In this document: positions 8,497 to 49,977 of the stretch, one piece after another | Position numbering within the stretch: position 1 is the stretch's first letter | How the letters are laid out: the number at the start of each line of letters is the position of its first letter | DNA from: Marsupella aquatica | Taxonomy: Eukaryota > Plantae > Marchantiophyta | DNA: 64,000 nucleotides | Reading direction: 5' to 3' | Assembly (NCBI GenBank): GCA_973895155.1 | Contig: OZ316898.1 | Span: forward strand, 4,823,079 to 4,887,078 | The notes under the pieces: model-generated | Told to the model about the DNA's origin: nothing | The model's database searches: none | Seen by the model: only the letters and a program-made list of their open reading frames with translations | Made by a program: the position numbers and the translations under genes

Positions 8497-9070
8497 TCCT
8501 GGGGACAGGGCAGGCAGGTAGCCATGGCAGACATCGATTCAGCCAAAAGGGCAGCTCGGGCACAGATAGTTTTACGGACAGGGCAGGCCGGGCAGATATC
8601 GATGTAGGCACGGTCGAGATCGATTTATGGACGGGGCAGGCAGACGTCGAGTTGGGGACCGGGCAGACATCGATGTAGGGACGAGGTACATAGGGAAGTA
8701 CGGGCAGGAATAAATTTAGGTTCAGGGCAGGACGGGCAGACATTGATTTAGGGACAGGGCAGGCCGGTAGAGATCGATTTAGGGGCGGGATGGGTCCGGC
8801 AGACATCGAGTTGAAGAATAGGCAGGCCAGGCAGACATCGATTTAGGATAGGGTAGGAAGGGCAGACAACAATTTAGAGAAGGGGCAGGCCGGGCAAACA
8901 TCAATAATTTGCGGACGAGGCAAGCCGGGCAAACATCAATAATTTGCGGACGAGGCAAGCCGGGCAAACATCAATAATAATTTAGGGATGGGGCAGGCTG
9001 GGCAGACATCGACTTCGGACGGGGCAGGCCGTGTAGACATCGATTTAGGGACAGGGCAGGCGGGGCAGGG
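8497..9070 (+). repeat. G-rich degenerate tandem array, ~30-36 bp unit (consensus ~GGGACAGGGCAGGCCGGGCAGACATCGATTTA), ~15 copies
   Basis: Recurrent gggcagacatcgatttagg / ggggcaggccgggc. Exact 35-bp duplications at 8889-8978. Probably TE-derived. Confidence 0.8.
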
Positions 9071-10422
9071 ATCGAGCCAGCCGACCTTTTTGTCGCCCTG
9101 TTTCTTGTTCGTGTACACTGTACAGTATCTATCATCCCAAGCATGGGGTGGGGGTTGGCGAGCGGGCAGCACAGGCAGACCGCAGACACCGAGCATCTGG
9201 AGCCTGGAGGGGCCCGGAGGGCGGGCAGACATCGAGTTGGCGATTTACCCGCCCTTTGTGCGCCTTTCATCCGTTCAACAATCGCGGGTTTCGCGGTGGC
9301 ATGGGCGTTTTCAATTCTCAACACGCACTCACAGAGGCGAAACCTTGTGTTTGTTGCTGCTGACCTTCTTCTTCTACTCTTCTCCTCTTCTCTTCTCTCT
9401 CGCTCTCTCTCTCGCTCGCTCTTCGGAAGGTGCGCCACCAAGGTAGGGAGAAGGACGAGAGGAGGGTAAGGAATGCGAGCTCGAGCTGCTGCTGCAATCG
9501 AAAGACTACGAGCAAAATAATCAAAGGACGTCGTCGGACAGACAGATTGCTCGGACCGACTCTCACTGTACTTCTTCTTCGCACCGACCGACAATCCGAG
9601 ACCTGCGCCACCCCCGTCTTCGATTCTTTGGATTCTTTGGATTCTTTCGATTCTCTCTTCGGGGTGCCTGTCTTCGCGGATTGCTGCGGTGGTGAACAAA
9701 ATCCGCAGCCTCTTCCTCCCATTCCCGTCGTTCCATGGGCTGCACCCACATTTGTCTCGGACGAGGTGTTTGGTAGACCTTCTTCACTGATCCGAACGGA
9801 GGAGAAACAAGCAGCAGAGTGCGGAGGAGAGTGGACGAAACGCGGAGGGCGAAGAAGGTCAGATTTTGCGGATTGGCAATTGGGCGAAGCTTTGAGGAGG
9901 GATGGCTTCGTGGAGATAGATAAGCTGTCGCAGGGCAGAGTAGGGCAAAAGTTGCGCAGGCAGGGGGAGTGTCCGAGGTGTGCTGGGCACCGGGGCTATT
10001 TTTTGCAAACTGAGAAAGGAAGCGGAGGGACTGAGAAAATTCGCACCGTGGCCACTGCTCTCAACGCCGGACGGTGATGTAAGACGCTCATAGTAAGTGT
10101 GGCTCGTCATCCATTCGTAACTACTATCATCTGGGTGTCTGCTCAGTTTTAAAGACATTTTCTCAGTGTCGATGGAGGATGGATTTTGAATGCAAGGACT
10201 CGGGCAATTGGCTTGTATTTTGTGTGTGGAGGGGAGGGGAGGGGAGGGGAGAGTCTCAAGAGAAACTGAGAAACTGATGACTCCGGCGATGGGGTTTGAG
10301 TGCGTCTTCCCATTCAGCAAGGAGGGATTGTCAGCGAGCATTTAGTTCGTCAGCCTGTGACCTTCAGACAGCTGATCTTGGACACGGTGGTGATTGCTTT
10401 GGGGTTTCGTGGCGCAGGAAAA

Positions 10423-20404: not shown

Positions 20405-20986
20405 CAGACGGCTTGGCCCGGTTTGACCTTGCCCGTCAAACTGGCCGAAAATCTTTGGCAAATCGGCAACCCGGCACCCGGGTTCGAGAGCAGTCCGGGC
20501 CAGGACAAGTTCGGGAGACGTTCGGGCCGGGTCCGGGCCACGTTCGGGCGAGGTTTGGGGGAGGTTGGGGGAGTTCGGAGGGGTTCGGGCGAGGGGGAGT
20601 TCGGGTGAGGTTCGGGGGACCAAGAGTTCAGGGTAGGTCGGGGGAGTTCGGGGGAGGGTTGGGGGAGTTTTGGGGGAGTTCGGGGGAGTTTGGGAAGGGT
20701 CTGGGTTCGGGTCCGGGGGAGTCCGGGACTCTAAACCCCGCCCTCCTTCCCCCAGCCCCGACCCCAGACCCGGCCCCGACCGGCTGCCACCCCGAACCGG
20801 GGTCCGGGGGAGTCCGGGTTTGGGTCTGGGGGAGTCCAGGAAGGGTCCAGGGGAGTCTGGGTGAGTTCGGGAGAATATTGAGGAATATCCGTCAAATTGG
20901 TCATTTTCGAACCGTCATTTGACAGTTTGACGTGCCCGGCAAGCCGTCAACTTGCCCGTCAGGTTAAACTGGGCGGCTTGGGTCTG
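20405..20986. mobile_element. Non-autonomous DNA transposon (hAT-like MITE) with G-rich internal repeats
   Basis: Imperfect TIR CAGAC...GCCCRGTTTRACCT at both ends. Subterminal CCGTCAA/TTGACGG motifs and internal GGAGTTCGGGG repeats. The flanking 8-mers gcgagaca / gccggtca only partly match. Confidence 0.45.
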
Positions 20987-31300: not shown

Positions 31301-31732
31301 CGGCTCTCAGGGGTTCTTGTCTGCTTCAAGTGCAGCTTGAGGAGTTAAGTACACCCTAATCTGAAACAAACTACATTCCACAATTACAAACAATGCAGGT
31401 AACCACACCATTCTGGTAGCTAAGGTGTCTACCCTTGTTAGATGAATGATATGAGGATGTGATTGCTGCAGCAGAGTATTTGCACCCCAGCACTTGAGTC
31501 CATTAGAAATTAACTGGTCTTGCCCAGGGGACATTTCACTTGAGGACCCATTTTGCCATTAAATCCACTAATCAGAGTACCTAAAAGTTTAAACCGCAGC
31601 CTCATATTGAAATGAAGATCTCCAAGTTCACACAAGTAAGTTGAGCTGTCTATGTGTTTCCAATTCTTTGGATTTCCAATTTGATATAGATTATTGAATC
31701 ATGATCTCCATATTCTAGTTGGTCATTGATTG

Positions 31733-31908
31733 TGTCGTGACATATAGTATTGTAGCCATAGTGTATCAAAAACATACAAGTCACCGGCAAGGCATATGTG
31801 CAAGCTGCTAGCAACCAACATGCATAGAAAAAGTCCAATCACATTCACAAGTGCCAAGAAAAAGCAAATGAAGTGGTATGTACGTAGTGGAGATGTAAAC
31901 CTCTGTAT
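31733..31908 (-). repeat. Split direct repeat unit A (176 bp), 3' terminal copy
   Basis: Direct repeat of 32270-32445 (offset 537). Ends the element in ...CACGACA. Confidence 0.97.
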
Positions 31909-32267
31909 ATAAAAGGCGTAAGAGAAACAATTGTACTGAAATCAAATCGAAAACCGGCAGGATGCCAAGATCGGCCGGGAGCATCTAACGAATCACTGTG
32001 TGAATCCCGTGTACGGAACCGACGAGCACTGTCTGAGCTCTGTCAACAGCGATTCAAGAAGAACTGAAAAATCCACAAAGAAAGACATGCCCTAAGCAAG
32101 CAAAGTCCTGGCGTCACACTAACAAGCACATTTGCTTCAAGAACGGCCCAGACTTGCTACAAGAACATGTCGCTAACTCAGGTAGTACACTAGCCCTAAC
32201 TACATACCTAGCGGGCAGACGAGGGACATGTCGATGTGCATAAGAGGCACTGTCCCTCGGCATGACA
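31909..32267 (-). repeat. Split direct repeat unit B (359 bp), second copy
   Basis: Direct repeat of 41149-41507 (offset 9240). Confidence 0.97.
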
Positions 32268-32269
32268 GC

Positions 32270-32445
32270 TGTCGTGACATATAGTATCGTAGCCATAGTG
32301 TATCAAAAACATACAAGTCACCGGCAAGGCATATGTGCAAGCTGCTAGCAACCAACATGCATAGAAAAAGTCCAATCACATTCACAAGTGCCAAGAAAAA
32401 GCAAATGAAGTGGTATGTACGTAGTGGAGGTGTAAACCTCTGTAT
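32270..32445 (-). repeat. Split direct repeat unit A (176 bp), inner copy
   Basis: Matches 31733-31908 with 2 substitutions. Separated from B by the dinucleotide GC (32268-32269). Confidence 0.97.
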
Positions 32446-32452
32446 CCCCCCC
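32446..32452 (-). promoter_or_regulatory. Polypurine tract (G7) for plus-strand priming
   Basis: GGGGGGG on the minus strand immediately abutting the inner A repeat, ~30 nt after the polyprotein stop. Confidence 0.7.
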
Positions 32453-32494
32453 AGACCACAGCCAAAAGGAGGGCTGAAGAAAATTCAGGTAGCA

Positions 32495-32645
32495 CGTGGA
32501 GCACAAGAAGGGCAAAACCATAACCCTTGTGGCACCTGGGTAAGTTCAGGCCGAAGGCAGAAACGATGGTACCCTCCATTGCAATTGTCACACAACAGCA
32601 TCTGGTCAGCATCATCAATTCGCAAACACACCTTGCAAGGGTAGT
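32495..32645 (-). other. PHD finger at the C-terminus of integrase
   Basis: DYPCKVCLRIDDADQMLLCDNCNGGYHRFCLRPELTQVPQGLWFCPSC is a C4HC3 finger with the hallmark W before the last Cys pair. It is in frame with integrase across the TAG at 32887. Confidence 0.95.
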
Positions 32646-32886
32646 CCACAGGTGGAATCCAAGTAGAAGTCACAATGGTGGGATCTAGGTTAGGCAGATG
32701 ACAAGGGGCGCAGTTCTTGGCATTGTCAGCAATTGTGCGCCCATCTGCCCCTTGTAACTCTAGCACTCCAGACGGTTGAATAGCTTTAACCCTGAGAATA
32801 GTACGACTGGTAGAGGTGTCCAGGGTGTCGTTAGCTTGCCGCTGCAAGTACACAAAATCTCCCACATCAAACTTCCTGACCTTGGG

Positions 32887-33825
32887 CTAAAAAGTGCCAC
32901 CTCGTGTGTGTGCATAACGCAGTGTGTCCCTGTGCTGTGCAATGGTCAAATTCTCCATGGCCATGGGCATAACCCTCCTGAATAGGGCAGCCCTCTCAGA
33001 GATCACATCAGACCAAGTCACAGCTGAATCCAAGTCCACCACCTGAAGCATGTGAGCAGCAATAGCAGAAGGTGGAACTGGGTGACGACCAAACAACAAG
33101 AAGTAGGGAGAAAAGTTAAATAGTGATGCATGTCTGGACATCCTATACCCCATGGCAATGTAGGGTAAGGCCAGGTCCCAATCCTCCTTGTTTTTGGTGA
33201 GGCACATCTTCCGGAGACCCTTCTTGCATGTCTGAACCATGCGCTCTGCCAAGCCATCTGCTTGTGGGTGATCTCGTGATGTCCGGCGATGATCAATGAG
33301 GGCCTGATCAAGCAGCTCCTGGAACTCTCCTCTAAACTCTGAGCCCTGGTCAGTGAGACATTCTGCACAAGCTCCAAAGCGGCTGAGAACTTGTTGCAGG
33401 AATGCCTGGCTGGTGCTACGGGAGGTCTTATCCGGCAATGCCACAAGTTCTATCCACTTGGAGAAATGCTCTATCATGATCATGATGTAGAGATTACCCC
33501 GAGATGTGAGGGGTAATTCTCCAGCCAAATCACATGACCAGCGATAAAACATGCCCTGAATAGGGAGTGGATGAAGTGTGGGTTGCCGAGATGTGAAAGA
33601 AGTCCTCACCCTATCACACTGTTCACACCGGGCAATAACATCTCGAACCTGGCCATGCATGCCTCTCCAATGATAATGAGGGACCAAGAGGCTGTAAGTC
33701 CTCTTAACGCCAAAATGACCAAGCTCAGAATGTACCTTACGGATAAGGCCAACCCTCTCATGAATGGGTGGAACCACCACTTCCCTGTCTGGCAAGCAGC
33801 GCACAAGATGATCTCCCTTCCACAA
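32887..33825 (-). other. DDE integrase with HHCC zinc-binding N-domain
   Basis: HSELGHFG...CEQC; WSCDLAG (D), LTDQGSEF (D), DGLAERMVQT (E); SPYFLLFGR (GPY/F-like). Confidence 0.95.
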
Positions 33826-33989
33826 GTAGCGCTTGGACCTTTGCTGAATTCAGTCTCTCTGGGCAGCAGTAACATGTGTGGGGTACTCCCCATGCTGCAG
33901 AAATCTCAGAGTGTCGTTGTCCTCCCATATGTCCACCACAGGTTGGTCAACAACATAGCATGGCAGCAAAGCAAGATAAGTCGATGCAT

Positions 33990-35463
33990 GAAATGTAGGC
34001 AGGATGGAAACCTGGTCAAAATCTTGCCGTGCATCTGAGGAATCATCAGAGGTAATCAAAGGGCTGCGGGACATAGTGTCAGCATTCTGATGTGTCACAC
34101 TAGGCCTATGAATTACCTCAAAATCATACTCCTGGAGTATGAGCGCCCAACGAGCAAGCTTGCCAGTAAGCTTGTCGTTGGTCATCAACCACTTCAAGGG
34201 CTGGTGGTCGGTGTAGAGAACAAACCTGGTCCCATAGAGGTAGGGCCTGTAATGTATGACAGCCCACACAACAGCAAGGCATTCACCCTCATAAGAAGAA
34301 TAATGACTCTTTGCCTGATTGTTGCTCCTGGATGCAAGGGCAATGACGTACTCTTTACCTTCCTCATCATGCTGGCCCAGAATGGCACCAATCCCAAGGG
34401 CACTCCAATCTCTGTGTAGCACACAGACCTTGCTGAAATCAGGTCTTCTCAGCACCGGGTATTCTGAGAGCTTCTCCTTCAAAGTGACAAATGCTGCCTC
34501 AGCATCTGTACTCCATGTCCAAGTCACATTCTTTTTCAACAAAGCATACAATGGGTGTGCAATGGTACTGAAATCTTTGATGTAGATCCGGTAGTAATTG
34601 CACAACCCAATAAAACTCCTCAAAGTGTGAACATCGGTAGGAATGGGCATTTCCAAGATGGATACCACCTTGGCCCAGTGAGCCATGGTTCCATTTGGAA
34701 GAATGCGATGCCCAAGATATACTACTGATCTGACAGCAAATTCACACTTCTTGGGGTGTATCTTTAGGTTCACCTTCTTAAGCCTCATGAATAGCTCCTC
34801 AAGGTCAAGTAGATGCTGGTCAAATCCTTTGCTATGGACCAACACATCATCAATGTAGCATTTCAGAAACTCAGCACCTTGAAGAACCTGATCCATGACT
34901 CTTTGAAAGAATATGGGCGCATTCTTCAAGCCAAATGGCATCACCAACCACTCCCATAGTTGGTTACTACCATGGAAAGCTGTTTTCTTGCGGTCCTTTG
35001 CAAGCAGCAAAATCTGGTTAAAGCCTTGCCTTAGATCCACAAGAGTGAAGATGTATGAGTCTCCAATGCTGTCAAATAGCTCCTCTGGCCGTGGCATGGG
35101 GTACCTGTCCTGGGGTGTGACCAGGTTCAGTGGCCTGTAGTCCTCACACATGCGCTTCTCTGTCCACAATCCACTGGAATCCTTCTTTGCTGGCATCACT
35201 GTAGCTGCTGCAAAATCTGATGTAGATGGCTGAATAAGACCAGCTTCATAGAGCTCTTGGCATCTCTCATCCACCAGCTGCCACTCATGCTTACTCAAAC
35301 GGTGTCTCCGCCTGAAGATAGGTGTTTCATCAGCCAACTCAATGGAGAACTGCATAGTCTTGCACTTACCCAAGTCCTTCATAGAGAAAGCAAACACATT
35401 CTCATGCTTGAGGAGCAAATTCAGCAGTTGGTCCTTCTGTCTTTTACTCAGGTGGTTGCCCAT
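33990..35463 (-). other. Reverse transcriptase and RNase H domains
   Basis: RT: KRMCEDYRPLN, DLRQGFNQI, VMPFGLKNAP, CYIDDVLVHS, YLGH. RNase H: DWSALGIGAIL, YSSYEGECLAV, YTDHQPL, HQNADTMSR. Confidence 0.96.
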
Positions 35464-35819
35464 GATGAATGTGTAGTTGGCACACTAGGAATAGGACCTG
35501 ATGTACTCGTGCTTGAAGAGCCAGAAGTGCCAGCCTCTCCACTGTCCAAGCTGCTAGCATGCTGCTGATAAGGTGATGAGGCCTCTCCAAGGCCTGCTGT
35601 ATCTGTTGCTCTGGTCTGATCCACACCATGAAACTCAGAAATAATGTCAGCCACATTACAAGGGACCTCCTCCCCCCCAACACTTGGACTGAAGTGGTGA
35701 GTGTTGGACAGAGGTAAGTGCACCTGGTCTGGATGCCATGTAGCAGCACCATGGAGTGGTAGGGCTGGCACTCCTGATGCTGGATGAATGTACATCTGAA
35801 AAAGGATGCAAGTGACCAG

Positions 35820-36740
35820 AAGCCAAGTGAGAGCATTAAGATCCATTACCTTGCCAAGTAAAGCAATCCTGGCCAGCCTGGTGATTTTGGTGTGACCTGT
35901 AGTACCGGGTTGGAAGCCCATAGCCCGTTCTCTCTCCTCAGGACTAGGTTCATCCCATGTACCGGTAGAATGTCGATAAACCAGGCCAGGACCATCACCC
36001 TGAAAAGCATGTGCACCTAGAAAGGACACAAAAGTAGGCCAAGCAGCACGGGGCTGTCCAATGGTATTAGCTGGATACCAAGGTGCTGGCTCTTGCCGTG
36101 TAACCGGTTGGCAAGAACTGTCAGGATCCAAAATCTGGTCCACTGTGAGGTTAGTGTCTCTGGATGTGTGGTGAAGAGCTAACTCCAACAAGGAAGGTGG
36201 TGCAAGGTTAGTCCAAAAGTTACGAAGACGATGTGCATAAGAACCACAGTGCACTGCATCAATGAGAAGGGGTGGTCCCAAGTAGTGCTGGACCACATTG
36301 AAATCCTCTTTGACCTGGAGATGGAGTATTCTCAATGATATAACCAACAGCAGGATAAAGGAATTGAGCCCAGGTGAGAATCTGAACCAATGCTGTGAAA
36401 AGGCCAGAACGAGAATCATGCAGTCTAGCACCGTGACCAGCAGCTGAAAACCCTTGGCATTCCCAACCAGCTATGATCAAATCAAGGGAGCCAAGAAGGG
36501 TTAAGTGCCGGTGCTGGACAAGCTGGATGTCTGGAGGGAAGAAAGAAAATGCGGACTTCCATGCACTATGTGGAAACTGCTGGGGAAATCGCTCAGAAAA
36601 TTCCAGCAGACGGGATTCAGCCACTTGCCTTGCACTTGGATCAATGTCCACGTAGATGTACTGCTTCACCACCATGCCAGACTGTAGGAGAGCTTCCAGG
36701 CCTGTAGAAATGCCACCAAAAAGCTCAAGCAATGTAAGGC
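35820..36740 (-). other. C5 cytosine DNA methyltransferase domain (DNMT3-like, non-permuted motif order)
   Basis: Motif I LLELFGGISTG, II YIYVDID, IV IIAGWECQGFS (catalytic Cys at 36457-36459), V DSRSGLF, VI YIIENT. After the frameshift: VIII SYAHRLRNFWTNL, IX PEERERAMGF, X ARIALLGKVMD. Confidence 0.9.
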
Positions 36741-37079
36741 CATCTGAAGGAGGAGTCCATTTAACTGGTGCGCTCAAGATTGGGGCTATTGGCTGTCCAT
36801 TGTGCTGCCCAAGGTCTTCAAACTTGCGCAATGCAGCCACCAAAGGTCCATGGGCTGCTTGGAGCCGTTGTACCACCTCTGGTTGATGATCCATGTTGCT
36901 GGAAAGTGCTGCTATACGTGCAGCAGCATGTGCAGCAGCCACCTCATCGTCATCCTCCTCAATCCAATCTTGCAATGGGTGGTTGACATAGGTAGCTGTG
37001 TGCACTGCTTTCAACACATAGTGGTGAGCCATAGGTGTATGGGCACCATGCAAATCAAGTGGAATGTAGCCCAAGTGTG

Positions 37080-37460
37080 AGCCATCCGTATGCCAATCAA
37101 CTCTGTAGTATGCATGCTCATGCCAATTGTCAATGGTAAAACCTGGTGGGAACAAAGCCTCCTGGCCAATGAGCACATCATACGTAGTGGCATTGGTAAC
37201 CAAACATCTGACTGGGAAATGCAATTCCTGATCTGTACCTCCATTAAAAGTGAGAGTGAGTAAAGTAGAACTCTCACCCAGCACATCCTCCACAGTGCCA
37301 CTAGCAGTCTGAATGTGCCACCTGGATTGCTGTAAATGATCAGTCAACAGTCCCATCTTCTTGGCAAACTGAATGCCCAATATCACTGGTTGAGCACCTG
37401 TGTCTAGCATGACCACCTGAGGAGTGTGACCCTCCAACTTGACCACTGAATTCCTGTTGT
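37080..37460 (-). other. Retropepsin aspartic protease domain
   Basis: VMLDTGAQPVILG catalytic motif (D at ~37403), flap IQTASG, and YDVLIG closing motif. Confidence 0.88.
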
Positions 37461-38579
37461 CAACAATGGCAATGGTGGTGGAAACTGAAGTCCTATCACT
37501 AGGCACCACTCTCGGCAAATGATGAGGTACCTTGTGAAGGGAGTTAGTATCCATGGTCTTTCCACTCAACAACATAGCCAGGAAAGATGGAGCAGCATGA
37601 CCAGAATCAAGTGTAGCTCTGGTCACACAATCAGCAGCAATCGGTACTGGGGCAACCAAACCAGTGGAAACATGTAATGGAGAAGAAGAAGGTCCACTAT
37701 GTACATGAGATTGGACCTCCAAAACCGGTGTCACAGGGGCTGATGAAGAATGCAGTGAACCCTCTAGCGCTCTGATGACAGCTCTAGCATCCAGCTGTAA
37801 ATCATGGCAACTGAAAAGTGGAGTTGTAAGAATCCTTTGTGCCATACCGGAGGTGAAATGATCAAGCAGCTCAGGAGAAACAACTCCTTGTGAAATGTTA
37901 GCAGCACCTGGTGGTGGAATGGATGTAGTTGTAGCTCCCTCCCCCCTCGCCAACAAGGTGCGCTCTTCAGCAAGTGTGAGTGGCTGAAAAGATTTGGGCA
38001 GGACAGCCCGAGCTCCCCTAGCTCTAGTCATAGGACCAGCAGCAAGACCATCAACCTGTACAATGCGGCGTGTGGGAGCAATACGGGAGGCAGCACTGGC
38101 CTGCTGGTAAGCAAAATAGGAAGGGCAGAATGAATCTGAAAATTCTGCTGTAAGGCCAGGCTGTGTAGCAGAGGATAGCACACACTCACCCATATGAGCA
38201 TCAAATGGCAAGCCATAGAAAGAGCGGGGTATGGGTGTTGAACTGTCAGTGGTGCCTGGGCCAGGGATGGGTTGCACATGACCAACCGGTTGAGAAGGAC
38301 CAGCAGAGGCAGTTGACTTGCCTTTGATGTTGGCAAGTTGGGCACGTAGGGACTCAACCTCATGAGTCAGAGACTGGAGTTGAGTTGCCTGTGCGTTGTG
38401 AGCCTCCTTCTGAGTTGGTTGCTTCTGTTGCTGCTTGGGCGGTTTGTTGGCACTGGATGCTTTGCCACTGGAAGGAGGAGCAGTTGATGCAGTAGGAGCC
38501 CTCCTAGCTGGTGGGGGAGTGGAAGCAGGAGCAGGAGGAGGGGCCTGCTGTCGTAGCTGCTTCCTCTCTGGGAATTTGG

Positions 38580-39834
38580 CAAAACAAACTGCCTCCAAGT
38601 GACCCACCTTTCCGCAAAAATCACAAGACAGGTCCTCAGCAACAATATCACAGTCATTAGCCTTGTGATTGGGGTTACCACAGTAGTTGCAAGATGGCAG
38701 CATGAAAGCAGCATGGGCTGGCTTGGTCTTGGAACCATACTGTGGCACACGGGAAGGAGTGGTCAGTGTAGGGGCAGCAGCCTGGTACCTGGATCGCGGT
38801 GGACGTGCAATACTGGCCTCATAATGTGCATGGGCCAACTCAAGTTTCTCAGCAGTGTCATAGATATTGAGCAGGGTGTAGCTATCTCCAAACTCTGAGA
38901 ATACTTGCTGCAACACTTGCGAATGGAGAGCTGGTGTCCCCTCCAATGCGCGAAGATAGCGATGAGCAGTTTCCAGATCAGTGATGCTCTGGGTGTCCTC
39001 CTTCAGCTTGAGAAGCCGGCGATACATCATCTTCAATGTTTCATCGCGCTGCCTCACAAAGGTGGCCAACTGCATGATTTTATCAGCACTCTTGATTGGG
39101 AATTCCAATTCAAGAACCTGGAAAAACTCAGCCACTGGATCAGCAAAGGTAGGGGAATCAATGGTCGGAGAAATGCCTGATGTAGCCTGTGCCAAGACAG
39201 TGGGAGTAACTGGCGCAGTGGTGGAAACTAAAGTAGGAGGGGAAGTGGCAGGAGCAGCAGCATGGGCTGCAATGGCATTCTGTAAGGCCAATTGTGAGGC
39301 TGCCGTAATTGCACTGGCATAGGTAGGGTTAGGCAACTGTGTGACAGCAAGCAGCCGTTGAGAGTGCTGCTCATACACATCCAACGCCTCATGGTGCACA
39401 TACCTGGCTAGCTACTTAAATGCAAAAGCATTTGTGAAATTGCTGCCATACTTCAACTCCAATTCATAAACGACAGTGTAGAAAGTGGATTTGAACTCAC
39501 GTAAAGAGACAGTGCCTGGCCGCCCGCTGAAGCGCTCAATGCGGCCAGATGAGTGGCTAGCATCCATGCTGTATGTCGGTGAAGCTGGAACAACCACTGA
39601 TGCAGAAGGGGTAAATGGCAATGAAGTGATAGCAGGCTTTGAAGTAGTGGTGAAGCGACCGCCAAATGTAGCAGAAGGATTGCGTGGTGTGGGTGCTGCT
39701 GCTGCTGTCTGCTGATGTCGTCAAAATTGCCGAGGCTCCAATGAAATTGGCACCAATGGTCGTGGATCACTCCGTAAATGGTACCTGGATGTTGGTGGCG
39801 ATGTGCTACTACCTCCTGGCTCCTCTGCTGACAT
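38580..39834 (-). other. Gag region with two CCHC zinc knuckles
   Basis: CNYCGNPNHKANDC and CDFCGKVGHLEAVC (CX2CX4HX4C). Upstream capsid-like helical region (ERFSG...FVRQRDETLKMMYRRL). Confidence 0.85.
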
Positions 39835-41136
39835 GCTGTGGTGTCCTTGCTGGATCGACGGTCTGATGTGTATGCCGGGCCTCAACCTTATGTAGATGAC
39901 ATGTGGCGGCAGCAAAGAAATTGGGAAAATATGGGAAAATATGGGCCCTATGCAACGGTAGTCGAATACACTGGGCCCCTCTTAAGTGTATACACATTTG
40001 GGCCCCATTGTGGACCCGGAAACTGCAGCCAGACCGGTCGAGTGTGTATACACACTCGTAGCACACGGCCCTATGCAGCGCTAGTCGGACGGCTATGGAA
40101 AAGTCGAGGAGTCACTATGGCCGGCGAGGGAAAGAAACGGGAGGGCACGATGCCCTATGTACATACTGCGGAGCACAAAAGGCGTAAGGAGGAAAAGGCA
40201 AGACGCAGCGTGGCAAAGGCGAAGTAAAGAGATGGCGAAAAGGGCGAAAAGAAAAGCATCGGGCCCCCATAGAGGGCTGCGAACTCCCCCCTCCTCTCGT
40301 GCAATGTAATTTGGGCTCGTGCCCTGGCAGGAGCACTCCCGAGAAGGGAGTCGACTTAACTCCCCTCCCCCTTTAATGCTTCATAGGGCCTCGTGCCCTC
40401 TCCTCTCGCAGTCTCGCTTCAACTCCTCCCCTTCGTTAATGCTGAATGGGGCCTTGTGCCTGGCAGAAGTGTGAGTCCCAAGAGGAGGGAGTCGAATGTA
40501 CTCCCTCTCCTCCTTTTAATGCAGCATAGGGCCTCGTGCCCTCTCCCTGCGCTCCTGCCTTCGCTCCCCCTCCCCCTTCTTTAATGCTGCCTAGGGCCTC
40601 GTGCCCTCTCCTGGTGCTCCTTCCCCTTCCTCTGGCAGTCTGGCTGCTTAGAAATGGGCGAGGCAAGGGCACGATGCCCTATGCACAGCCTGCACACCAA
40701 AGCGGAAGGAGGTCGAGAGAAAGAGAAGAAAACAGGGCCCCCAAAGGCGAAAACGTAAAGAGGAGGCCGGGGTGGAAGCGTGTCGAAATGAGGGCACACG
40801 GCCCTATGCAGGCGTCTCGCTGCAACCGAGGCAAAACTCGCCGGCAGCTGTGGCCGGGAATGCGAAAATGGCCCCAAAAACACAAGCGGCAACAAGCGGC
40901 AACAAGCGGCAGTAACAGTAAGAAGGAGCAAATGGGGTCGCGGATGCAACCAGAAAATGAACTCTGGACCTCCTCGGGAGCATTGATATGTGTATACACT
41001 TAAGTATACACATAACAACATAAACCCATAACTTTCAACTCGTCGCTCCGATGTTTGTCGAAGAAATTGCAATGGCTTCACCAGAAATTATCAAAATCAT
41101 CACGAGCAAGCTTCTTTCCCTCACTGCCAACTCGGG

Positions 41137-41150
41137 AGTTCTTCTTGAAT
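41137..41150 (-). promoter_or_regulatory. Putative self-priming primer-binding site
   Basis: Minus-strand ATTCAAGAAGAACT directly at the inner boundary of the 5' B repeat. It is the perfect complement of AGTTCTTCTTGAAT (41305-41292) inside B. No TGG-type tRNA PBS is adjacent. Confidence 0.7.
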
Positions 41151-41507
41151 AAAAGGCGTAAGAGAAACAATTGTACTGAAATCGAATCGAAAACCGGCAG
41201 GATGCCAAGATTGGCCGGGAGCATCTAACGAATCACTGTGTGAATCCCGTGTACGGAACCGACGAGCACTGTCTGAGCTCTATCAACAGCGATTCAAGAA
41301 GAACTGAAAAACCCACAAAGAAAGACATGCCCTAAGCAAGCAAAGTCCTGGCGTCACACTAACAAGCACATTTGCTTCAAGAATGGCCCAGACTTGCTAC
41401 AAGAACATGTCGCTAACTCAGGTAGTACACTAGCCCTAACTACATACCTAGCGGGTAGGCGAGGGACATGTCGATGTGCATAAGAGGCACTGTCCCTCGG
41501 CATGACA
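41149..41507 (-). repeat. Split direct repeat unit B (359 bp), 5' end of element
   Basis: Matches 31909-32267 with 7 substitutions, all transitions. Confidence 0.97.
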
Positions 41508-43174
41508 ATTGAAAGTTGTGGAGCTTCCCCTTTTATGGGCATAGTAGCTTCAAAGACTCCCCATTGCATAGCATTGAATTGAAGTTTTTCACATGTTCAG
41601 GCACACGTTCCCATTGTCCAATGCTTATGTAGAGTGAGTCCAATCGTAGCCCATTAAGCTCACAATGTCCTAAGCACGGATGATCACTTTCCACCTGAGT
41701 TTTTAACTCACATTGAATGGCCCTTTCCAGTAAGCCAGATTCTGTCATCTTCTCCTTATTAGCCAAATGAGGCCTCCCATAGAGCGGACCAGCTTTTTCA
41801 AAGATGACATGACAGGGTGCAAGTTCTAATTAGCAGCTTCTCGATGTGGACTAACAACACGATAATTCATTACATAAGCCTCATTATGATATCAGAACAT
41901 TACTAGGTACTTGTCAAGCAAGTCCCAAGGTACTTATGAAATAAGTCCCTATATGCATGCAACTTCTGCTTTTGGGGATGATGGAAGAAACTCAGGAGTT
42001 TATTGAGTATAGAGTGTGCACAGAGCCTGAGAACCAGACCAGATATATACTGTGATAAGTAGAAGAAGATATCTTTGAATACATCATTCTATGGGAGAGC
42101 CATGTCCCCAACAAAGCTAGAGGAAAATTGTAGGCAAGAAAAACATGTTGAGGAGTAGCCAATGCAACTTCAGGAGGCCACAGTCAATGCTTAGGAAAAC
42201 AACACAACCAAAGTTTTAAACAAAGTCAATACTCTGGCTGTCTTAGAATGATACAAAATTTACACAAGTGACTTTAAGAAGATGCTTCAAATCACCTACA
42301 GTAGGCTATGTCCAAAAGAAGAGGAGAAAGTAAAGATGGTTCCTTCCTTTCCCTGTATGGCCTGGTCAGTGTTACTTTTGTTACCTCTTTTGGGGCAAAC
42401 CCTATGAGACCATTGCCCGCCTACAACATTTACTGTTAGGTGATTGGGTCAAGCTTCAGGTGGAGTACTACAATTGGGTTGGTGACGATTGCATTGCGGA
42501 CAACTGTTTTCCACGAGGTGCCACAAATACCTCTTGTCCGGCGTCATCACTCTGTCAGAGCCTCATGTTAGGAAAGCTAGTGAGTACTCTAGGGCAGCGC
42601 GCTCTTTGGTTTCCCTCTCACCTGCCTATGCATCTGAAGATATCATTGCAGCCCTCGAAACTCATCATGCCCCGAGGGCAGCTGAGGTTCCAACGGGGTT
42701 CCAGGCTTTGTAAGGAGTGTCTTGCTGGAGGATTAATTAGTTTTCCCTATCTCAGGAAATTTTGACTTCTGTCTTCCTTCTTCTGCCGTGACTTTTAACC
42801 AACGGCATGTATGGGATAGGTCGCAGCATTTGCAGGATTGCTTTCTTCCAAATGACTTAGCATCCTGGGGGGCCTGGATTTTCTCAGATTTTCCAAGTGT
42901 GTGCCCATGTTGTGGGCCATTGCAGGGGGGAGTATCTCTCCTGCAGTTGCTCAGATCTTTAGAGTTAGCCTACTTTTGGCCCTGGCCAAGAAGCCTGTGG
43001 GTGATCAGCCTCTAACTTGCAATTGGGGAGGTTTCATAACGGAGATTTAGTCAATTTTTGCCTTAAAACTTGGTCACAGTTTTCATCTCACTTTTTCTCT
43101 CACCAATATAGTGTGGCCACCCATGAGATTGTGAAACTTTAGTTCCTTTGCGGTTGTGAGGGACTCTTGTGCAT

Positions 43175-43428
43175 TTTGGCTCCTTGATCTCCCTGGGCTT
43201 TCCCCCTAGTTTTCTTGCCTTTCTTGGGTCCCCTATCTTTAGGATATGGGCATTTGGGCTCCTTGCAAGACTCCTTGATCTCCCTGGGCTTTCCCCTAGC
43301 TTAGTTGCCTTTATTGGGTCCCCTATCTTTAGGATATGGGTAGTTTGGCTCCTTGGAAGGCTCCTTGATCTCCCTGGGCTTTCCCCCTTGTTGTCTTGCC
43401 GTTATTGGATCCCCTATCTTTAGGATAT
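43175..43428. repeat. Tandem repeat, ~90 bp x3
   Basis: ctccttgatctccctgggctttcccc...cccctatctttaggatat recurring at ~43230, 43320 and 43411. Confidence 0.88.
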
Positions 43429-44326
43429 TATCCCCCTGGTTTGGAGCTCCATGTTTGTTGGCACTGTGATATATACTGCAGCCCATGTTCATCGAATAAT
43501 TCTAAGACACCGTAGCAATATCTTACAAATGATCAAAAGCTACCATAATGATGAAATTCAAGTGTATGTTTGAAGCTCGCATTATAAAGTATATTGTGAT
43601 TACTATGGTTAGGAGGCCAAAGGTGCACAAGGATAACTAAGGGGGTTGATTGCGTTAAGACAGAAAGGATCTACTATAAAAGTTAGTATAGTAGGGGAAC
43701 CTCATGCAAGCAATCATTAGAACATATATAGAAAAGGCATAATTCTGTGTAAATCTTAGCCATTCTTGTTCTAAAGAAGAATTCCATGTTGTGAATCACT
43801 CCATACTGATTTGACGATGTCATGCCAGGTAATCCGATAATTTATAAAGTATTTAAATTTGTATTTCATTTTAATTATTATAGAAAATTATGCTCTCGAT
43901 CATATTCCTTGGTAGAGGGCACTCAAAATCTATTGATTTTATCCTCCTCTGGTAGCAGCTCCAGCAGATTTTGAGCGACCATGTTAGTTAATTATTTACG
44001 CAAAAGCATCAAAAGTTATCTTCACAAACCCTGATCTTATCAGTCACAATGGTGAATAAACAAAACATAAAATCTTATTTCTCTACAAAAGAGTACTACT
44101 TGAAAAGAACGCCAAGCCTAGATGTACCTCTATGCTGGACACAATGTTCTGGGGATCACATTTTGGTGGTCTATGAGAGTTTTGGGCTTATAATTTGATG
44201 ATTACGAGTCTTAAAATATCTTTAGTTTTTCACTTGCAAGACAACTAGAGAAAGAGGAGACAATAAAAAACTCAAGGCTCACTAATATTTCATATTAATA
44301 TAATGAAATTAATCTAATATAACTTA

Positions 44327-44433
44327 TCTCTCCGCATTCCATGATGAATAACTCAATCAAAATGGTAAACAATTCATTTTCTCTCTCCACATTCCATGAT
44401 GAATAACTCAATCAAAATGGTCAAAAATTCATT
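44327..44433. repeat. Tandem duplication, 55 bp x2
   Basis: cattccatgatgaataactcaatcaaaatggt repeated. Confidence 0.85.
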
Positions 44434-46240
44434 GTCACTTTGATGAAAGGATAGCTTACCTATTCCTCTAGCACATACTCAAAACTTGTTGAGAATAGTC
44501 CAGGTTGCGAAGCCCATCCAAGCATTTTGGAAACATTGTTTACCGCCTTACCGCAAGAGCTTTTGTTGTTACTATTATTATAATTTTCACTGTGATCCTC
44601 TTATACCTTGAAGTTAAGCTTTGATGGACCACACCATGTTACCCCAGGACTCCGATGAAGCAAAACCTTTGAGCCTTGAAAAGTGAACATTATACGTAAG
44701 AAAGATGCTATCTGAATAAAAAGTAAAATATCATAGCATTAACGCAAGTTCCAACAGTACATCTGAGATCTTGTCAATCATGGTGGTCTATGCACAGCCA
44801 GGTTCCCTGTACATTGGAGGTCACGAGGTAGTACTTACATTTAAAAATGGGTATTTGGCAAGAATTGGGACACCGGTGGAGGATGGTAAGGAGATTCCAA
44901 TTAAATACCTTTATCAGAATGACATCAGAGGGTCACTAAGACTCTTAAGAGCAATCTGTCTATCGGCGCTAAAACCAACGACCTCGGTTTTCACGAAGAA
45001 AAAAGTAAAATCGTATTTTAATGACTACTAGGAGAACTTTACCTAGAGTCCTTAAAATCAACCCCATTTCCTCGGTTTTCAAAATAAAAAATAAAAAATC
45101 ATATCCTAATGCGTTTTATGATTTGGGTATGTATGTGAGCAGTCTAGATTTGAATCAGCTCATTATAACAATTTTCCTTTACTGTTACTAAGGTTAGTAA
45201 ACCTGAAACTCTGCTCTTGAGGGGCAGTATAATTGACAATGTTGTAAACCCCTTACTATATACTTATTCCTTTCATGATTTTCCAGTCTGTATGTTTGAG
45301 TGCATTCTTGAATTTAGAATGCCGGGTCAAGATTTGGATCACCCTTTAGTAAGATTCTCTCTACTTCTACACAAATTTCTCAATAAACATAATGGTTTTT
45401 AGGTCTCTTAGTGTATTAAGGTTTTTTCAGAGCCTTACCGACAACAATAGCCCCTCAAAACTCAAGGTGAAGGCTCTCATTTTCGGGGATTAGAAACACA
45501 ATGGTTGTAAATCAAATATCACTAATATACCAATAATGAGTCACAAATTTCTTAACTTACGGATGATAGCTTTTGTGTTATGGATTGATTTTTGGATTCG
45601 CTACGCTTATGGTGTGTTTGGCCCTTTTCTGTAAAAAGTTTACTTATACAAACTTATGGTATGTGTCAATCTTTATAAAAATAATAAAAATTTATAGATC
45701 ATAAATTTAATAGTCTAGAACTTTTTATGTCTGTAATTATAACTTAATAACTATGTCTGTAATTACATTAACGCCTATCAGATTGTGAGATTTGAGAACC
45801 CTAATGACATAATTATGCCACGTATTATCACCGTTGCACTGATCCCGGTGAAGTGAGGAGTCGAGGGAAGGAAAGGAGCGGAACGGAACGGAACGGGCTG
45901 TGGTGGCTGGATGAGCGTGGCGGCGGTGCCGGTACCGGGAAGCTGGTGAATGAGACACCCAGACCGCGCGCACCGGGAAGTTTCACTGCTCCAGAAGTTC
46001 AGCGGGACGTTTGTTTCACGGCCTGCGTGTCGGTCGGTGAAAATAAAAACTCGTTGCCGTGGGAAGCCCCGTCGTCACAGGCGGGCGTCAGCCGGGCAAG
46101 GCAGCTCGCGAATAATAATAATCTGTCCCGGCGGCGCATCATCACTACGACACTACTCCAGCAGAGAAGTCCCGGCGACAAGTTCACCTCTCCTTTCTTT
46201 CGTTTCTCCTCTTCTCTCCTTTCCTTTCTTTCCCTTCCCT

Positions 46241-47242: not shown

Positions 47243-49977
47243 GATGATGCTGATTTAGGGGCCGTGATTAAGTTGAAAGTAGAAAGAGAAGGCATCACTG
47301 CTGTTAATTAGCAAGTACTAGCGGAGAGATCTGGAAAGAAGTAGGGTTCATGTTCATTTGGGAAAGAAAACGGGAGAGAGGTGTGGTACGATGTAGGGAA
47401 GGAAGCGGAGATCTTCTGTAGAAGGGGTAAGATGCGATGCTGTGAAGACGCTCCCCAAGTTAGCTCAGCAAATTAAGGATCCAGAAATTTTGGAATGGAC
47501 GTTAGGACCCGCGTTAGGAAAGATGGTGCAGCTACCCGTGCGACTATCGTAGGAAGAGGAAGCTGATCTGAGGTTCTGGCAATTTTAAAGGTAACGAATG
47601 ATGGTGTTGCTGAGAATATATGGTGGAGAACTTGAGCCGACTGAGGTAGGTTCATCTCCTAAGTGCGGGCGGGAGTGCGGGAGGGAAAGGAAAGGAGCAC
47701 TATGATCGATCCGGATGTAGGAAGGTCTCAACAACCGAGGATCGGCTGAACTCTTATTTGTCGAGTGCGAAGTAAGAACGATTTCGATCTCGTCGGACCT
47801 CTTTGCCGATTTCGTTCAACCCGTGTGGCTCTGAATTCCGATCTGCTCAGGGAGAAACCCATTGAATTGATTTGGCCTTGGCCTGGTGGACTCCAAAAGA
47901 TTGCGTTGCTGCACAGGAAATGTACATGGAAGGCCCGTGAACTCGGTGGAAGCTGGCATGCCGAAAGGTGCTCGGGCTGTTTATGACCAGGGTTTAACCG
48001 AAGGGTTTTTCCTGCGCATTCGGTTTTGTTGGACAATTTTCCTTTCCAAACTTGAGAGACTTGGATGATCATCCAGCCGACCAACTATTTCTCTGGAGGC
48101 GAACGATGATCTCGAGGTGCGAAAACATTGTTGTGCATCACCATCTGCCTTCACTTGCTCACTCACGTGTCTCTTTCCCATTACCAGTCGTTCATGTGAC
48201 TTGGTTCACGTCTAAACAACGCCCGCGAACATTTAGTCATCACTGACTTGATTTTCCTCATCCATCTCTTTCTGTTACGATGGATCATTGGCTCGATGAG
48301 AGCGGCTTACACGACCTTGATTAGAACTCAGGAGATTTCCTTGCCAGGACTACACGGCACGGCACAGCTGTCATGTTCAAGTCATCAGCTGGCAGTCTTG
48401 ACCACTACAGTACCATTACTACAGGACACTCGCCAGCTCCTTCCACATGCTCAATCCAGTCTGAAATCATCCCAACCATCATCTTGCTGAACCAACCTCC
48501 GCAACTGGTTTTACAAATTTGCGTATGCACTCGTAAACCGTGCACACGTACCCGCCGAGTGCTTCGTGGAGCGGATTGTATGTTTCACAAGAAGCTGTAG
48601 GGTAGAGATACGTGTATGGGATATTGGATTCCATCCCGTTCGCACGTGCGCTGTTGGAATGGCCACTTTGGTACTTGTTCGGAAGAATAGGAACTGCGTT
48701 TCGACGAAGTCCTGTTCAGAGTTCGATCCCACAACTGACAGGTTAATTGCTGGTTCGATCCCACAACTGACAAGTTAATTGCGGACAGAAGACAAAGCGA
48801 CTAGCTACTACTGTGTAGTTGGATGTACATAGCTTACTCCATCAATCACCACTCAGGGAGACCAATATCTGTACAATGAGCTCTGAGCCGCATGGCTTGG
48901 AAAGCTGCAGGTAAGGTTTTATGGCACCTGTGGCGCGCTTTGCTGCCAGATTTACGTCGTCAATTGCCTCAAGCTGACTCTCAAAGTTTCGATCTATAGA
49001 TTTCAGATCGATTCAAGGTAGGCCGATCCCCTCACAACTTCCTATCGTCATTCCTAGCCTGCGCCATCCTGATTAAATGTACGTGATAGCTTCATTAAAG
49101 GGTCCAGAAGCTCACAGTTGGATTTGTCTCTCGAAATCGTGGCCACCGGGGTCGGCACTGACAGGTTTGGAAGTGGTTCAAGTTTGGAAATTATACGAGT
49201 CCATCTATTCTTCTGAACCAGCCTGAATCAGGTCGATCATACCTTCGTCACGGTGTCTGACGACACTAAAACCCTCGTACTGCCGATGACCAACCCCTTT
49301 CTTGCTGAAAAGCTTGCTACGAACTGCAGGATACCTGTAAATTCTATGATCTCAAAGTTCATTGACTTGGGTTCCTGGCAAACTAAGACTGGTCGAGCAT
49401 ACACGTCGCACGGGTCCAGTACTTCAAGTGAAAGTATAGGATTCTTGAACACACCTGTCTAACTCATCAAATGCTTAAGATCCACAAGGATACGAGCGAG
49501 GCCTGTGATAATCTGATGAACATGTACCCGCGCGCATGAGGTACGAAGGTCCCTGCTGGCTTGTTATTCGAATACTGACTGATCGATTGACTGTTCAGTC
49601 GTTCAGTATTGATCCCCGCCAGTTTTACATTCTAAACTGAAGCACATCGTAGAGCAGTACTTTGGTCGCTGAAAACCAGAAAAACCATTCGTAGAAGATG
49701 TAGAATGCCATGAAATCATATATCAGGAGCTTGAAATTGTGAATGATCCTGAGAACTTTGTGAACCGCGTGATCGAGTCTTCCCCATCAGTGATGGATTC
49801 ATGTATTGGACATTGTATGATCTGCAGTTGTCAGCTGTCAAAACCATAGTTCTTGATCAAGAACTCGAGCTACATACGTCACGCTGTTGGCTAGCTATGA
49901 AATGTACGCCTGGATGTATTTTCAAGTTGTCATTGTCTGTCCCGTGAACGCACAGGTTTCATTTGATATCTATTTCG

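What the first reader, a model, noticed from the sequence alone, without database searches (positions are those of the whole stretch)
32485..32865. Integrase ends in a PHD finger instead of a chromodomain: a chromatin reader paired with a DNA-methylation writer in one element
Seen: a complete C4HC3 PHD at the position where chromoviruses carry a chromodomain. It has acidic residues before Cys1 and in 'DDADQMLLCD', and Tyr rather than the cage Trp before the His. Known: BHC80/AIRE-type PHDs with this pattern bind unmethylated H3K4, and the DNMT3A ADD domain reads the same mark. Inference: the PHD steers integration away from H3K4me promoters; this insertion is in the middle of a ~33-kb stretch with no detected genes. 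With the MTase, the element would re-create an H3K4me0-reader/DNMT3 logic.
Basis: partly seen in the sequence, partly recalled or inferred. Interest (0 to 1): 0.75.

Follow-up and report, generated by a model that had tools for sequence, protein, structure and literature searches.

The report
PHD-tipped integrase of Gypsy-DNMT3 retrotransposon
A broken copy of a green-plant jumping gene ends its integrase with a real PHD zinc finger that likely grips unmodified histone H3 tails to bias where new copies land, and it also encodes a DNA methyltransferase; both add-ons are already known in such elements, and nothing here shows that they work as a pair.

Summary
The PHD is real (32503-32637, minus strand; Pfam E 2e-11). 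It ends the integrase frame, behind a stop in this broken copy. The element (31733-41507) is a Ty3/Gypsy, gag-protease-DNMT3-like-RT-RNaseH-integrase-PHD, with a 4-bp target duplication and split repeats A-coding-B-A-B, the layout reported for KnitGypsy-Dnmt3. It lies in a large green-algal and plant clade where the C-terminal PHD is the rule (57 of 71 relatives picked by RT similarity). The finger is of the KDM5-PHD1/BAZ2/ATXR5/UHRF1 type rather than BHC80/AIRE. The H3 Ala1 and Arg2 pockets are conserved and the H3K4me3 cage Trp is absent (1 of 129), but the Lys4-contacting acids vary. Reading of the unmodified H3 tail is therefore likely, and strict K4me0 selectivity is unproven. The site is intergenic and CpG-poor but not central, and selection explains that equally well. 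PHD-bearing Gypsy elements and Gypsy-DNMT3 are both published. Verdict: new member of a known kind.

The parts
32503..32637 (-). C4HC3 PHD finger, last domain of the integrase frame
   Evidence: Pfam PF00628 E 1.9e-11; model pLDDT 83-91 over the finger and rmsd 1.0-1.6 A to ATXR5, BAZ2A/B and Lid PHDs
32638..32709 (-). conserved linker beginning with the clade motif APCHLP
   Evidence: A, P, C invariant in 70 aligned rows; pN 0.07 with saturated pS against 71 copies of a second family
32701..32883 (-). beta-stranded, SH3-like integrase C-terminal domain; no GPY/F motif seen
   Evidence: five strands in the model; sequence; the SH3 label is inferred from secondary structure and position, not from a fold hit
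32884..32886 (-). in-frame stop between the integrase core and the C-terminal domain (defect of this copy)
   Evidence: open frame in relatives
32887..33849 (-). integrase zinc-binding (H2C2) domain and DDE core
   Evidence: PF17921 E 4e-14, PF00665 E 9e-14
33853..35484 (-). reverse transcriptase and RNase H; stop at 33850-33852, frameshift near 35481
   Evidence: PF00078, PF17917; other copies in public runs differ at 35481
35820..36750 (-). DNMT3-like C5 cytosine methyltransferase, broken by a frameshift near 36304-36318
   Evidence: PF00145 E 2.5e-5; best solved relatives DNMT3A, E 0.009; catalytic Cys, EN and RxR motifs present and 95-99% conserved in 100 relatives
37132..37452 (-). aspartic protease
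   Evidence: PF13975 E 8.5e-7
38600..39834 (-). gag with zinc knuckles; stops at 39721-39723 and 39412-39414
   Evidence: six-frame translation; PF00098 weak, E 0.007; similarity to relatives
41149..41507 (-). repeat A1, 5' end of the element (begins TG)
   Evidence: 359 bp, 98.05% identical to A2; many different flanks beyond 41507 in four runs
32446..32452 (-). G7 polypurine-tract-like run directly before repeat B1
   Evidence: same run in a second family; role inferred
32270..32445 (-). repeat B1 (ends CA), followed by a 2-base spacer and A2: an internal end-to-end junction
   Evidence: 176 bp, 98.9% identical to B2; CA-NN-TG junction conserved in a second family
31909..32267 (-). repeat A2
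31733..31908 (-). repeat B2, 3' end of the element (ends CA)
   Evidence: many different flanks at the B end in two runs
31729..31732 (.). 4-bp target-site duplication, left copy (right copy 41508-41511)

Best explanation
This is the C-terminal PHD finger of the integrase of a broken Gypsy-DNMT3-type retrotransposon, and in working copies it likely tethers the integration complex to nucleosomes through the unmodified start of histone H3, which would bias insertions away from H3K4me3 promoters independently of the element's methyltransferase. Shown: fold, position, conservation, clade-wide presence, absence of the K4me3 cage, integrase-type insertion with a 4-bp duplication. Inferred from homologues: binding of H3 Ala1 and Arg2, with affinity falling as Lys4 is methylated. 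Inferred by analogy with chromoviruses: the tether biases target choice. Inferred from retroelement biology: the protease cuts Pol, so the DNMT3-like domain would act as a separate protein, probably on the element's own cDNA or new copy.
For: PHD hit. Nearest solved fingers bind unmodified H3 (PMC5415848 and bioRxiv 715474 passages). Mapped on KDM5A PHD1, the Arg2 Asp after Cys3 is kept in 119 of 129 relatives, and the Ala1 pocket Trp in 122, Pro in 105, Gly in 91; Trp two before the His in 1 of 129. The window copy has an Asp at the position that aligns with the BAZ2B acidic wall (alignment; numbering inferred). Strong purifying selection: pN 0.17 for the PHD, 0.10 integrase core, 0.13 RT, with synonymous sites saturated, against up to 71 copies of a second family. 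C-terminal PHD in 57 of 71 RT-selected clade members whose integrase end is present. Around 34 insertions of the second family, CHG observed/expected rises from 0.28 at 0-0.5 kb to 0.65 at 6-8 kb, while post-insertion loss is about 15% per copy; the nearest host-gene Pfam hit is 5.2 kb away (6 of 34 loci). A PHD-bearing Gypsy of Chlamydomonas inserts between genes 2.6 times more often than chance (PMC9940879 passage).
Against: No binding or targeting was measured. Lys4-contacting acids are variable: 69 of 129 have an acid at Cys1-2 to -4, 61 at the wall positions, 37 have neither; the window copy has Ala at the position of KDM5A E305. KDM5A PHD1 itself binds methylated K4 fairly well. The flank data have no genome-wide baseline, CpG shows no gradient (0.24-0.35), and loss of harmful insertions predicts the same picture; PMC9940879 leaves that open too. 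14 of 71 relatives lack a canonical PHD (one divergent finger, one partial record), so it is dispensable in some lineages.
Confidence: 0.58

Rival explanations
1. General chromatin anchor: the finger binds H3 Ala1-Arg2 with little regard to Lys4 (UHRF1-like), or binds DNA or a non-histone partner, and only raises integration efficiency; the intergenic location reflects selection after insertion.
For: Arg2 and Ala1 pocket residues are far better conserved than the Lys4 acids. UHRF1 PHD, solved also with H3K4me3, PAF15 and Stella peptides, is among the structural matches. Target duplications show no sequence preference.
Against: 92 of 129 relatives keep at least one acid at a Lys4-contacting position; BAZ2A/B, DPF3 and MOZ, which share the pattern, lose binding on K4 methylation.
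Confidence: 0.24
2. One reading: PHD and DNMT3-like domain act together like ADD and DNMT3A, so that the reader places or activates the writer on K4-unmethylated chromatin at the new insertion.
For: Both domains are ancestral-looking across a 137-row clade (SH-like support 100). In a nested, mostly chlorophyte subclade of 62 rows the DNMT lies directly before the integrase, where it could stay fused to it. The methyltransferase motifs are conserved.
Against: In this element about 1,060 residues, RT and RNase H among them, separate the two. In L082 and its cluster the DNMT and RT-integrase-PHD parts are separate predicted proteins in one frame. DNMT without PHD: 11 of the 14 PHD-less relatives carry a DNMT in the same ORF. 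PHD without a DNMT hit: P0029, L085, L086. KnitGypsy-Dnmt3 DNMT showed no activity in yeast, which the authors call inconclusive.
Confidence: 0.12
3. The finger reads H3K4me1 or K4me3 and steers copies into or near genes.
For: The second finger of the rice H3K4me1 reader EHD3 is a close match (E 2.6e-12).
Against: EHD3 needs two fingers and its single PHDs did not bind K4me1 (PMC13022364 passage). No cage Trp. Flanks are gene-poor.
Confidence: 0.06

Closest known systems
KnitGypsy-Dnmt3 of Klebsormidium nitens / 'Gypsy-DNMT3' of streptophytes (PMC5890265, passages and supplement search; named again in bioRxiv 10.64898/2026.05.21.726589, passages)
   Same: Gypsy domain set, DNMT3-like domain inside Pol, DIRS-like repeat layout A-coding-B-A-B. 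A Klebsormidium protein with protease-DNMT-RT-RNaseH-integrase (P0238) falls in the same clade.
   Different: The paper's text and three supplement files never mention a PHD, but Fig. 4c is not held and may show one. It presents the element as a K. nitens acquisition; here the clade also holds Marchantia, Coleochaete, Closterium and chlorophyte sequences.
Gypsy-7a_cRei and REM1 of Chlamydomonas (PMC9940879 passages; REM1 paper not held, known only from citing passages)
   Same: Gypsy Gag-Pol with a PHD finger; intergenic bias and chromatin targeting already proposed.
   Different: Ordinary LTRs and no DNMT mentioned for Gypsy-7a. The legend lists PHD before integrase, which fits a separate small clade with the PHD upstream of the integrase (P0248, P0335, P0342, P0367); that match is my inference.
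Chromoviruses (MAGGY, Tcn1, Chlamyvir; PMC6317226 passages)
   Same: Histone-reader domain at the integrase C-terminus.
   Different: PHD, not chromodomain; no GPY/F motif seen; split repeats. None of the 120 best RT-RNaseH relatives lists a chromodomain.
KDM5A/B PHD1, BAZ2A/B, ATXR5, WSTF and UHRF1 PHD fingers
   Same: About 40-53% identity over the finger, rmsd 1.0-1.6 A, same Ala1 and Arg2 pocket residues, no cage Trp.
   Different: Single finger on an integrase; N-terminal Asp one place off from KDM5A D292; Ala at the E305 position.
EpiLTRs (bioRxiv 10.64898/2026.05.21.726589, passages)
   Same: LTR elements that join a histone reader with DNA methyltransferases.
   Different: Those have a chromodomain, a DAM and a DNMT4-sister enzyme; this has a PHD and a DNMT3-like enzyme.

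Membership tests
PHD finger | C4HC3 zinc ligands with canonical spacing and core Trp | tested here: met
Unmodified-H3 reader PHDs (BHC80, AIRE, KDM5 PHD1, BAZ2) | no aromatic cage | tested here: met
   Gly two before the His in the window and 118 of 129 relatives, Trp in 1; the cage position itself is recalled
Unmodified-H3 reader PHDs (BHC80, AIRE, KDM5 PHD1, BAZ2) | Ala1 pocket (Pro, Gly, Trp) and Arg2 Asp after Cys3 | tested here: met
   mapped from KDM5A numbering; 105, 91, 122 and 119 of 129
Unmodified-H3 reader PHDs (BHC80, AIRE, KDM5 PHD1, BAZ2) | acidic residues contacting unmodified Lys4 | tested here: inconclusive
   window has Asp at Cys1-3 and Cys3-5 but Ala at Cys3-6; 37 of 129 relatives have neither kind
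Unmodified-H3 reader PHDs (BHC80, AIRE, KDM5 PHD1, BAZ2) | measured binding that falls with K4 methylation | not testable with these tools
   needs peptide binding assays
Ty3/Gypsy LTR retrotransposon | protease-RT-RNaseH-integrase order, DDE core, TG...CA ends, target-site duplication | tested here: met
   4-bp duplication in 8 of 10 two-ended loci of a second family, 7 distinct sites
Ty3/Gypsy LTR retrotransposon | two complete LTRs and a primer-binding site after the 5' LTR | tested here: not met
   split repeats A-coding-B-A-B; the 5' end has A only. A tRNA primer site was not tested, no host tRNA set being available
KnitGypsy-Dnmt3 / Gypsy-DNMT3 | DNMT3-like domain within Pol | tested here: met
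   one open frame DNMT-RT-RNaseH-integrase-PHD in P0089. The DNMT3 label rests on weak PDB hits and motifs; no DNMT tree was built
KnitGypsy-Dnmt3 / Gypsy-DNMT3 | DIRS-like repeat layout on a Gypsy domain set | tested here: met
   29 of 80 related loci show B-A-B
KnitGypsy-Dnmt3 / Gypsy-DNMT3 | RT groups with the Klebsormidium elements | tested here: met
   same 137-row clade as P0238, P0178, P0218 (FastTree only); that P0238 is one of the paper's copies is inferred
Chromovirus | chromodomain at the integrase C-terminus | tested here: not met
Chromovirus | RT placement within the chromovirus clade | not tested
DIRS (tyrosine-recombinase) elements | tyrosine recombinase, no target-site duplication | tested here: not met
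   DDE integrase and 4-bp duplication
Phygy (REXdb) | NCGN target preference | tested here: not met
   window duplication has no CG; no base preference in 58 right flanks (feature)

The most novel reading that the evidence does not exclude
An ancient green-lineage Gypsy clade carries its own chromatin reader and writer as a working pair: the PHD docks the integration complex on K4-unmethylated nucleosomes and the DNMT3-like enzyme methylates the new copy there. In the chlorophyte branch the enzyme has moved next to the integrase, and some members add a second reader-like domain and an adenine-methyltransferase-like domain. The clade would also copy itself through an internal CA-NN-TG end-to-end junction cut by a DDE integrase, a DIRS-like route not worked out for Gypsy elements.
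Probability: 0.13. Interest if true: 0.72.

Novelty: new member of a known kind. Interest (0 to 1): 0.36.

Why it matters
No retrotransposon PHD finger turned up with measured histone binding or proven targeting in the passages I read, though the idea is published. This family is high-copy and the finger is small and intact, so it is a convenient test case. Natural PHD-less and DNMT-less sister lineages give built-in controls for why retrotransposons keep a DNMT3. The breadth of the clade and its split-repeat ends with integrase-type insertion are more surprising than the PHD itself.

Tried and rejected
Complex prediction of the finger with an H3 tail and zinc gave no verdict (score 0.27, mark 0.34, alignment not used) and is not used either way. 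No whole genome is held, so no genome-wide insertion map. No RNA holder was listed. Two scans of viral contigs for relatives found none. The Atlas gave only sub-0.9 leads for the 826-aa ORF. The wide VIA fold search was never run, the machine being busy, so the SH3 label is unconfirmed. dN/dS could not be corrected because synonymous sites are saturated; raw pN and pS are given. The 'intact 0 of 71' line was a pattern error; the corrected count is 18 of 71. In the tree, P0089, P0037 and P0076 are labelled 'noPHD' by a strict pattern but carry a decayed or cut finger; they are not counted as losses. The 45 of 80 loci with a single B repeat are not taken as a second native form: L020 and L054 are one site seen in both forms, so assembly collapse or B-B recombination explains them. 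A tandem-duplication accident as the origin of B-A-B is rejected, because a second family with no detectable repeat similarity has the same layout. A PDB search meant to show the cage Trp position gave no K4me3 reader among the five alignments shown. Literature searches that found no paper on the PHD-plus-DNMT3 pairing; the library lacks most subscription papers, figures and bioRxiv supplements.

Full report
Observation. The minus strand at 32637-32503 encodes a complete C4HC3 PHD finger (Pfam PF00628, E 1.9e-11). It follows a beta-stranded C-terminal domain and a short linker in the integrase frame and ends five residues before the stop. No chromodomain is present. An in-frame stop at 32884-32886 cuts it from the integrase core in this copy. 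Close relatives at 84-85% identity read through as one frame, P0089 from the methyltransferase to the PHD. The position before the His is W, Y or F in 126 of 129 relatives. The cage position is one further back (recalled) and is Gly.

The element. It spans 41507-31733 on the minus strand: gag, protease, C5 methyltransferase, RT, RNase H, integrase, PHD. It begins TG, ends CA and has a 4-bp target duplication. It carries four stops and two frameshifts, so it is dead. Other copies in public runs differ at both frameshifts. The repeats are split: A1 (359 bp), coding region, a G7 tract, B1 (176 bp), two bases, A2, B2. The pairs are 98.05% and 98.9% identical and all nine differences are transitions. 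Both outer ends meet many different flanks in the runs. Depth over the coding part is roughly a thousand times the flank depth, a rough sign of high copy number. De Mendoza et al. 2018 describe this layout and a DNMT3 in Pol for KnitGypsy-Dnmt3 (PMC5890265 passages). The host is a land plant by inference, likely a bryophyte: named relatives are streptophytes, and one run covers the flank in long contigs without differences.

A second family. The 80 best of 425 related metagenome loci (69-84% identity) have the same gene order and repeats with no detectable similarity to the window's. They keep the G tract, the CA-NN-TG junction and the ends. 29 of 80 show B-A-B, 45 a single B, and 6 are cut or lack B. 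8 of 10 two-ended loci have an exact 4-bp duplication, with no base preference. Against up to 71 non-redundant copies (9 duplicates dropped), synonymous sites are saturated while pN is 0.17 in the PHD, 0.10 in the integrase core, 0.13 in RT and 0.20-0.25 in the methyltransferase. The finger has been kept under selection; 18 of 71 individual copies still have it intact.

The clade. A search with the integrase end found 75 proteins, nearly all with integrase and PHD, named ones from Klebsormidium, Coleochaete, Pleodorina, Tetradesmus, Hariotina, Cymbomonas and Pseudoscourfieldia. A search by RT-RNase H, blind to the PHD, listed 120 proteins, none with a chromodomain. I set aside 36 as animal or otherwise outside the clade. 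Of the other 84, 13 are cut short, 57 have the C-terminal PHD and 14 lack a canonical one; 11 of those 14 have the DNMT in the same ORF. A FastTree of 155 RT-RNase H rows (cluster members, most animal rows and short rows left out) gives one clade of 137 rows with SH-like support 100. The DNMT lies before RT in the streptophyte-type lineages and between RNase H and integrase in a nested 62-row subclade. A 14-row subclade with Closterium lacks the PHD, and P0029, L085 and L086 give no DNMT hit. Methyltransferase motifs are 95-99% conserved in 100 domains and the nearest solved enzymes are DNMT3A, weakly.

What the finger reads. By sequence and fold the nearest solved PHDs are WSTF, CHD4, Lid and KDM5 PHD1, BAZ2A/B, ATXR5, MOZ/DPF and UHRF1; BHC80 and AIRE rank lower. 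In KDM5A PHD1, H3 Ala1 sits in a Pro-Gly-Trp pocket, Arg2 binds the Asp after Cys3, and Lys4 meets E305 and the N-terminal carbonyls (bioRxiv 715474 passages). Among 129 relatives the Asp is kept in 119, the Trp in 122, the Pro in 105 and the Gly in 91; Trp at the cage position occurs once. Acids at Lys4-side positions are patchy: 69 before Cys1, 61 at the wall, 37 neither. These rows are related, not independent. The acidic wall goes with unmodified-K4 reading and excludes the cage Trp (PMC5415848 passages); the window copy has Asp at the aligned position. H3 N-terminal binding is thus likely, a K4me3 preference unlikely, and the strength of K4me0 selectivity open. The K4me1 reader EHD3 needs two fingers (PMC13022364 passages).

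Targeting. The window insertion lies in CpG-poor DNA (observed/expected about 0.3 on both flanks against 0.86 in the long exon), 8.4 kb from an 826-codon ORF. It is not central, and 9.8 kb of the gene-free stretch is the element. Around 34 insertions of the second family, CHG is depleted most near the site (0.28, rising to 0.65 at 6-8 kb), more than the 15% per-copy loss seen between repeat pairs, while CpG is flat. Among 121 flank ORFs of 110 aa or more, 6 of 34 loci have a host-gene Pfam hit, none nearer than 5.2 kb, and 6 have a transposon hit. This fits insertion into long-methylated intergenic DNA, but there is no baseline and selection gives the same result.

Mechanism. Most likely the PHD travels with the mature integrase and tethers it to nucleosomes with an unmodified H3 start, biasing insertion away from active promoters (0.58). 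A general anchor with little Lys4 discrimination is the main rival (0.24). The ADD/DNMT3-like pairing (0.12) is weak for this element, because about 1,060 residues separate the domains and each is lost alone elsewhere. It is most plausible in the subclade where the DNMT abuts the integrase.

Prior knowledge. PHDs in retrotransposons, and their possible role in targeting, are in print: Gypsy-7a_cRei (PMC9940879), REM1 and CR1 as cited in PMC8557442 and PMC6673714, and a survey in which PHD and chromo are the commonest transposon fusions (bioRxiv 2021.11.30.470311). Gypsy-DNMT3 is known, and reader-plus-methyltransferase LTR elements were named EpiLTRs in 2026. I saw passages only, no whole text. 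Seven searches found no paper stating the PHD-DNMT3 pairing or the clade's reach into chlorophytes, but Fig. 4c of PMC5890265, the REM1 paper and bioRxiv supplements could not be seen. Three earlier reports of this scan on other genomes reach the same reading; they are not independent support.

Verdict. A real, conserved, probably functional reader on a known kind of element: new member of a known kind, interest 0.36.

Noticed in passing
window 31733-32452 and 41149-41507; L028, L036, L054, L069, L075: Split direct repeats with a G7 tract before B1 and an internal CA-NN-TG junction between B1 and A2, on an element that inserts with a 4-bp duplication. Conserved in a second family whose repeats share no detectable sequence. 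How the cDNA ends are made is unexplained.
   Followed up: partly
P0047, P0061, P0035, P0006 and other long-tailed relatives: After the PHD, 54 relatives have tails over 250 aa; 15 of them carry DPxxGxG and SP(P/W)F motifs about 52-59 residues apart, like an N6-adenine methyltransferase (weak PF02086 hits, E about 0.002), behind a conserved domain that looks Tudor-like by eye.
   Followed up: partly
tree: The DNMT lies before RT in the streptophyte-type lineages and between RNase H and integrase in a nested 62-row subclade that holds the named chlorophytes: one move within Pol, by this tree.
   Followed up: partly
P0175, P0177, P0180, P0183, P0184, P0187, P0190, P0191, P0197-P0202: A subclade whose PHD ends in His instead of the last Cys.
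   Followed up: no
P0077 (Pseudoscourfieldia); P0075: P0077 is the one relative with Trp two before the His, a possible switch to methyl-K4 reading. P0075 has both a PHD and a chromodomain after the integrase.
   Followed up: no
window 31909-41148 against runs X1 and X3: Contig depth over the coding part is about a thousand times that of the flank, so the family is probably very abundant in this host; the 39917-41148 leader is 15-100 times lower, so most copies differ there.
   Followed up: partly
P0139, P0140, P0146, P0148, P0204, P0226: Several annotated Marchantia 'genes' (Mp8g17980, Mp2g26090 and others) are pieces of this retrotransposon clade with its DNMT; four identifiers searched were not found in the paper library.
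   Followed up: partly
L081-L086: Six contigs filed in prokaryotic genome assemblies are eukaryotic retrotransposons of this clade, probably binning contamination.
   Followed up: no
window 3352-4110 (-) and 49948-52425 (+): Snf7 (ESCRT-III) exons, and an 826-codon low-complexity ORF with no Pfam hit and only weak streptophyte leads.
   Followed up: partly
window 44153-44486, 8549-9075, 20533-20884, 43178-43428: A dispersed short repeat with many flanks in the runs (44153-44486, MITE-like) and several degenerate tandem arrays.
   Followed up: no
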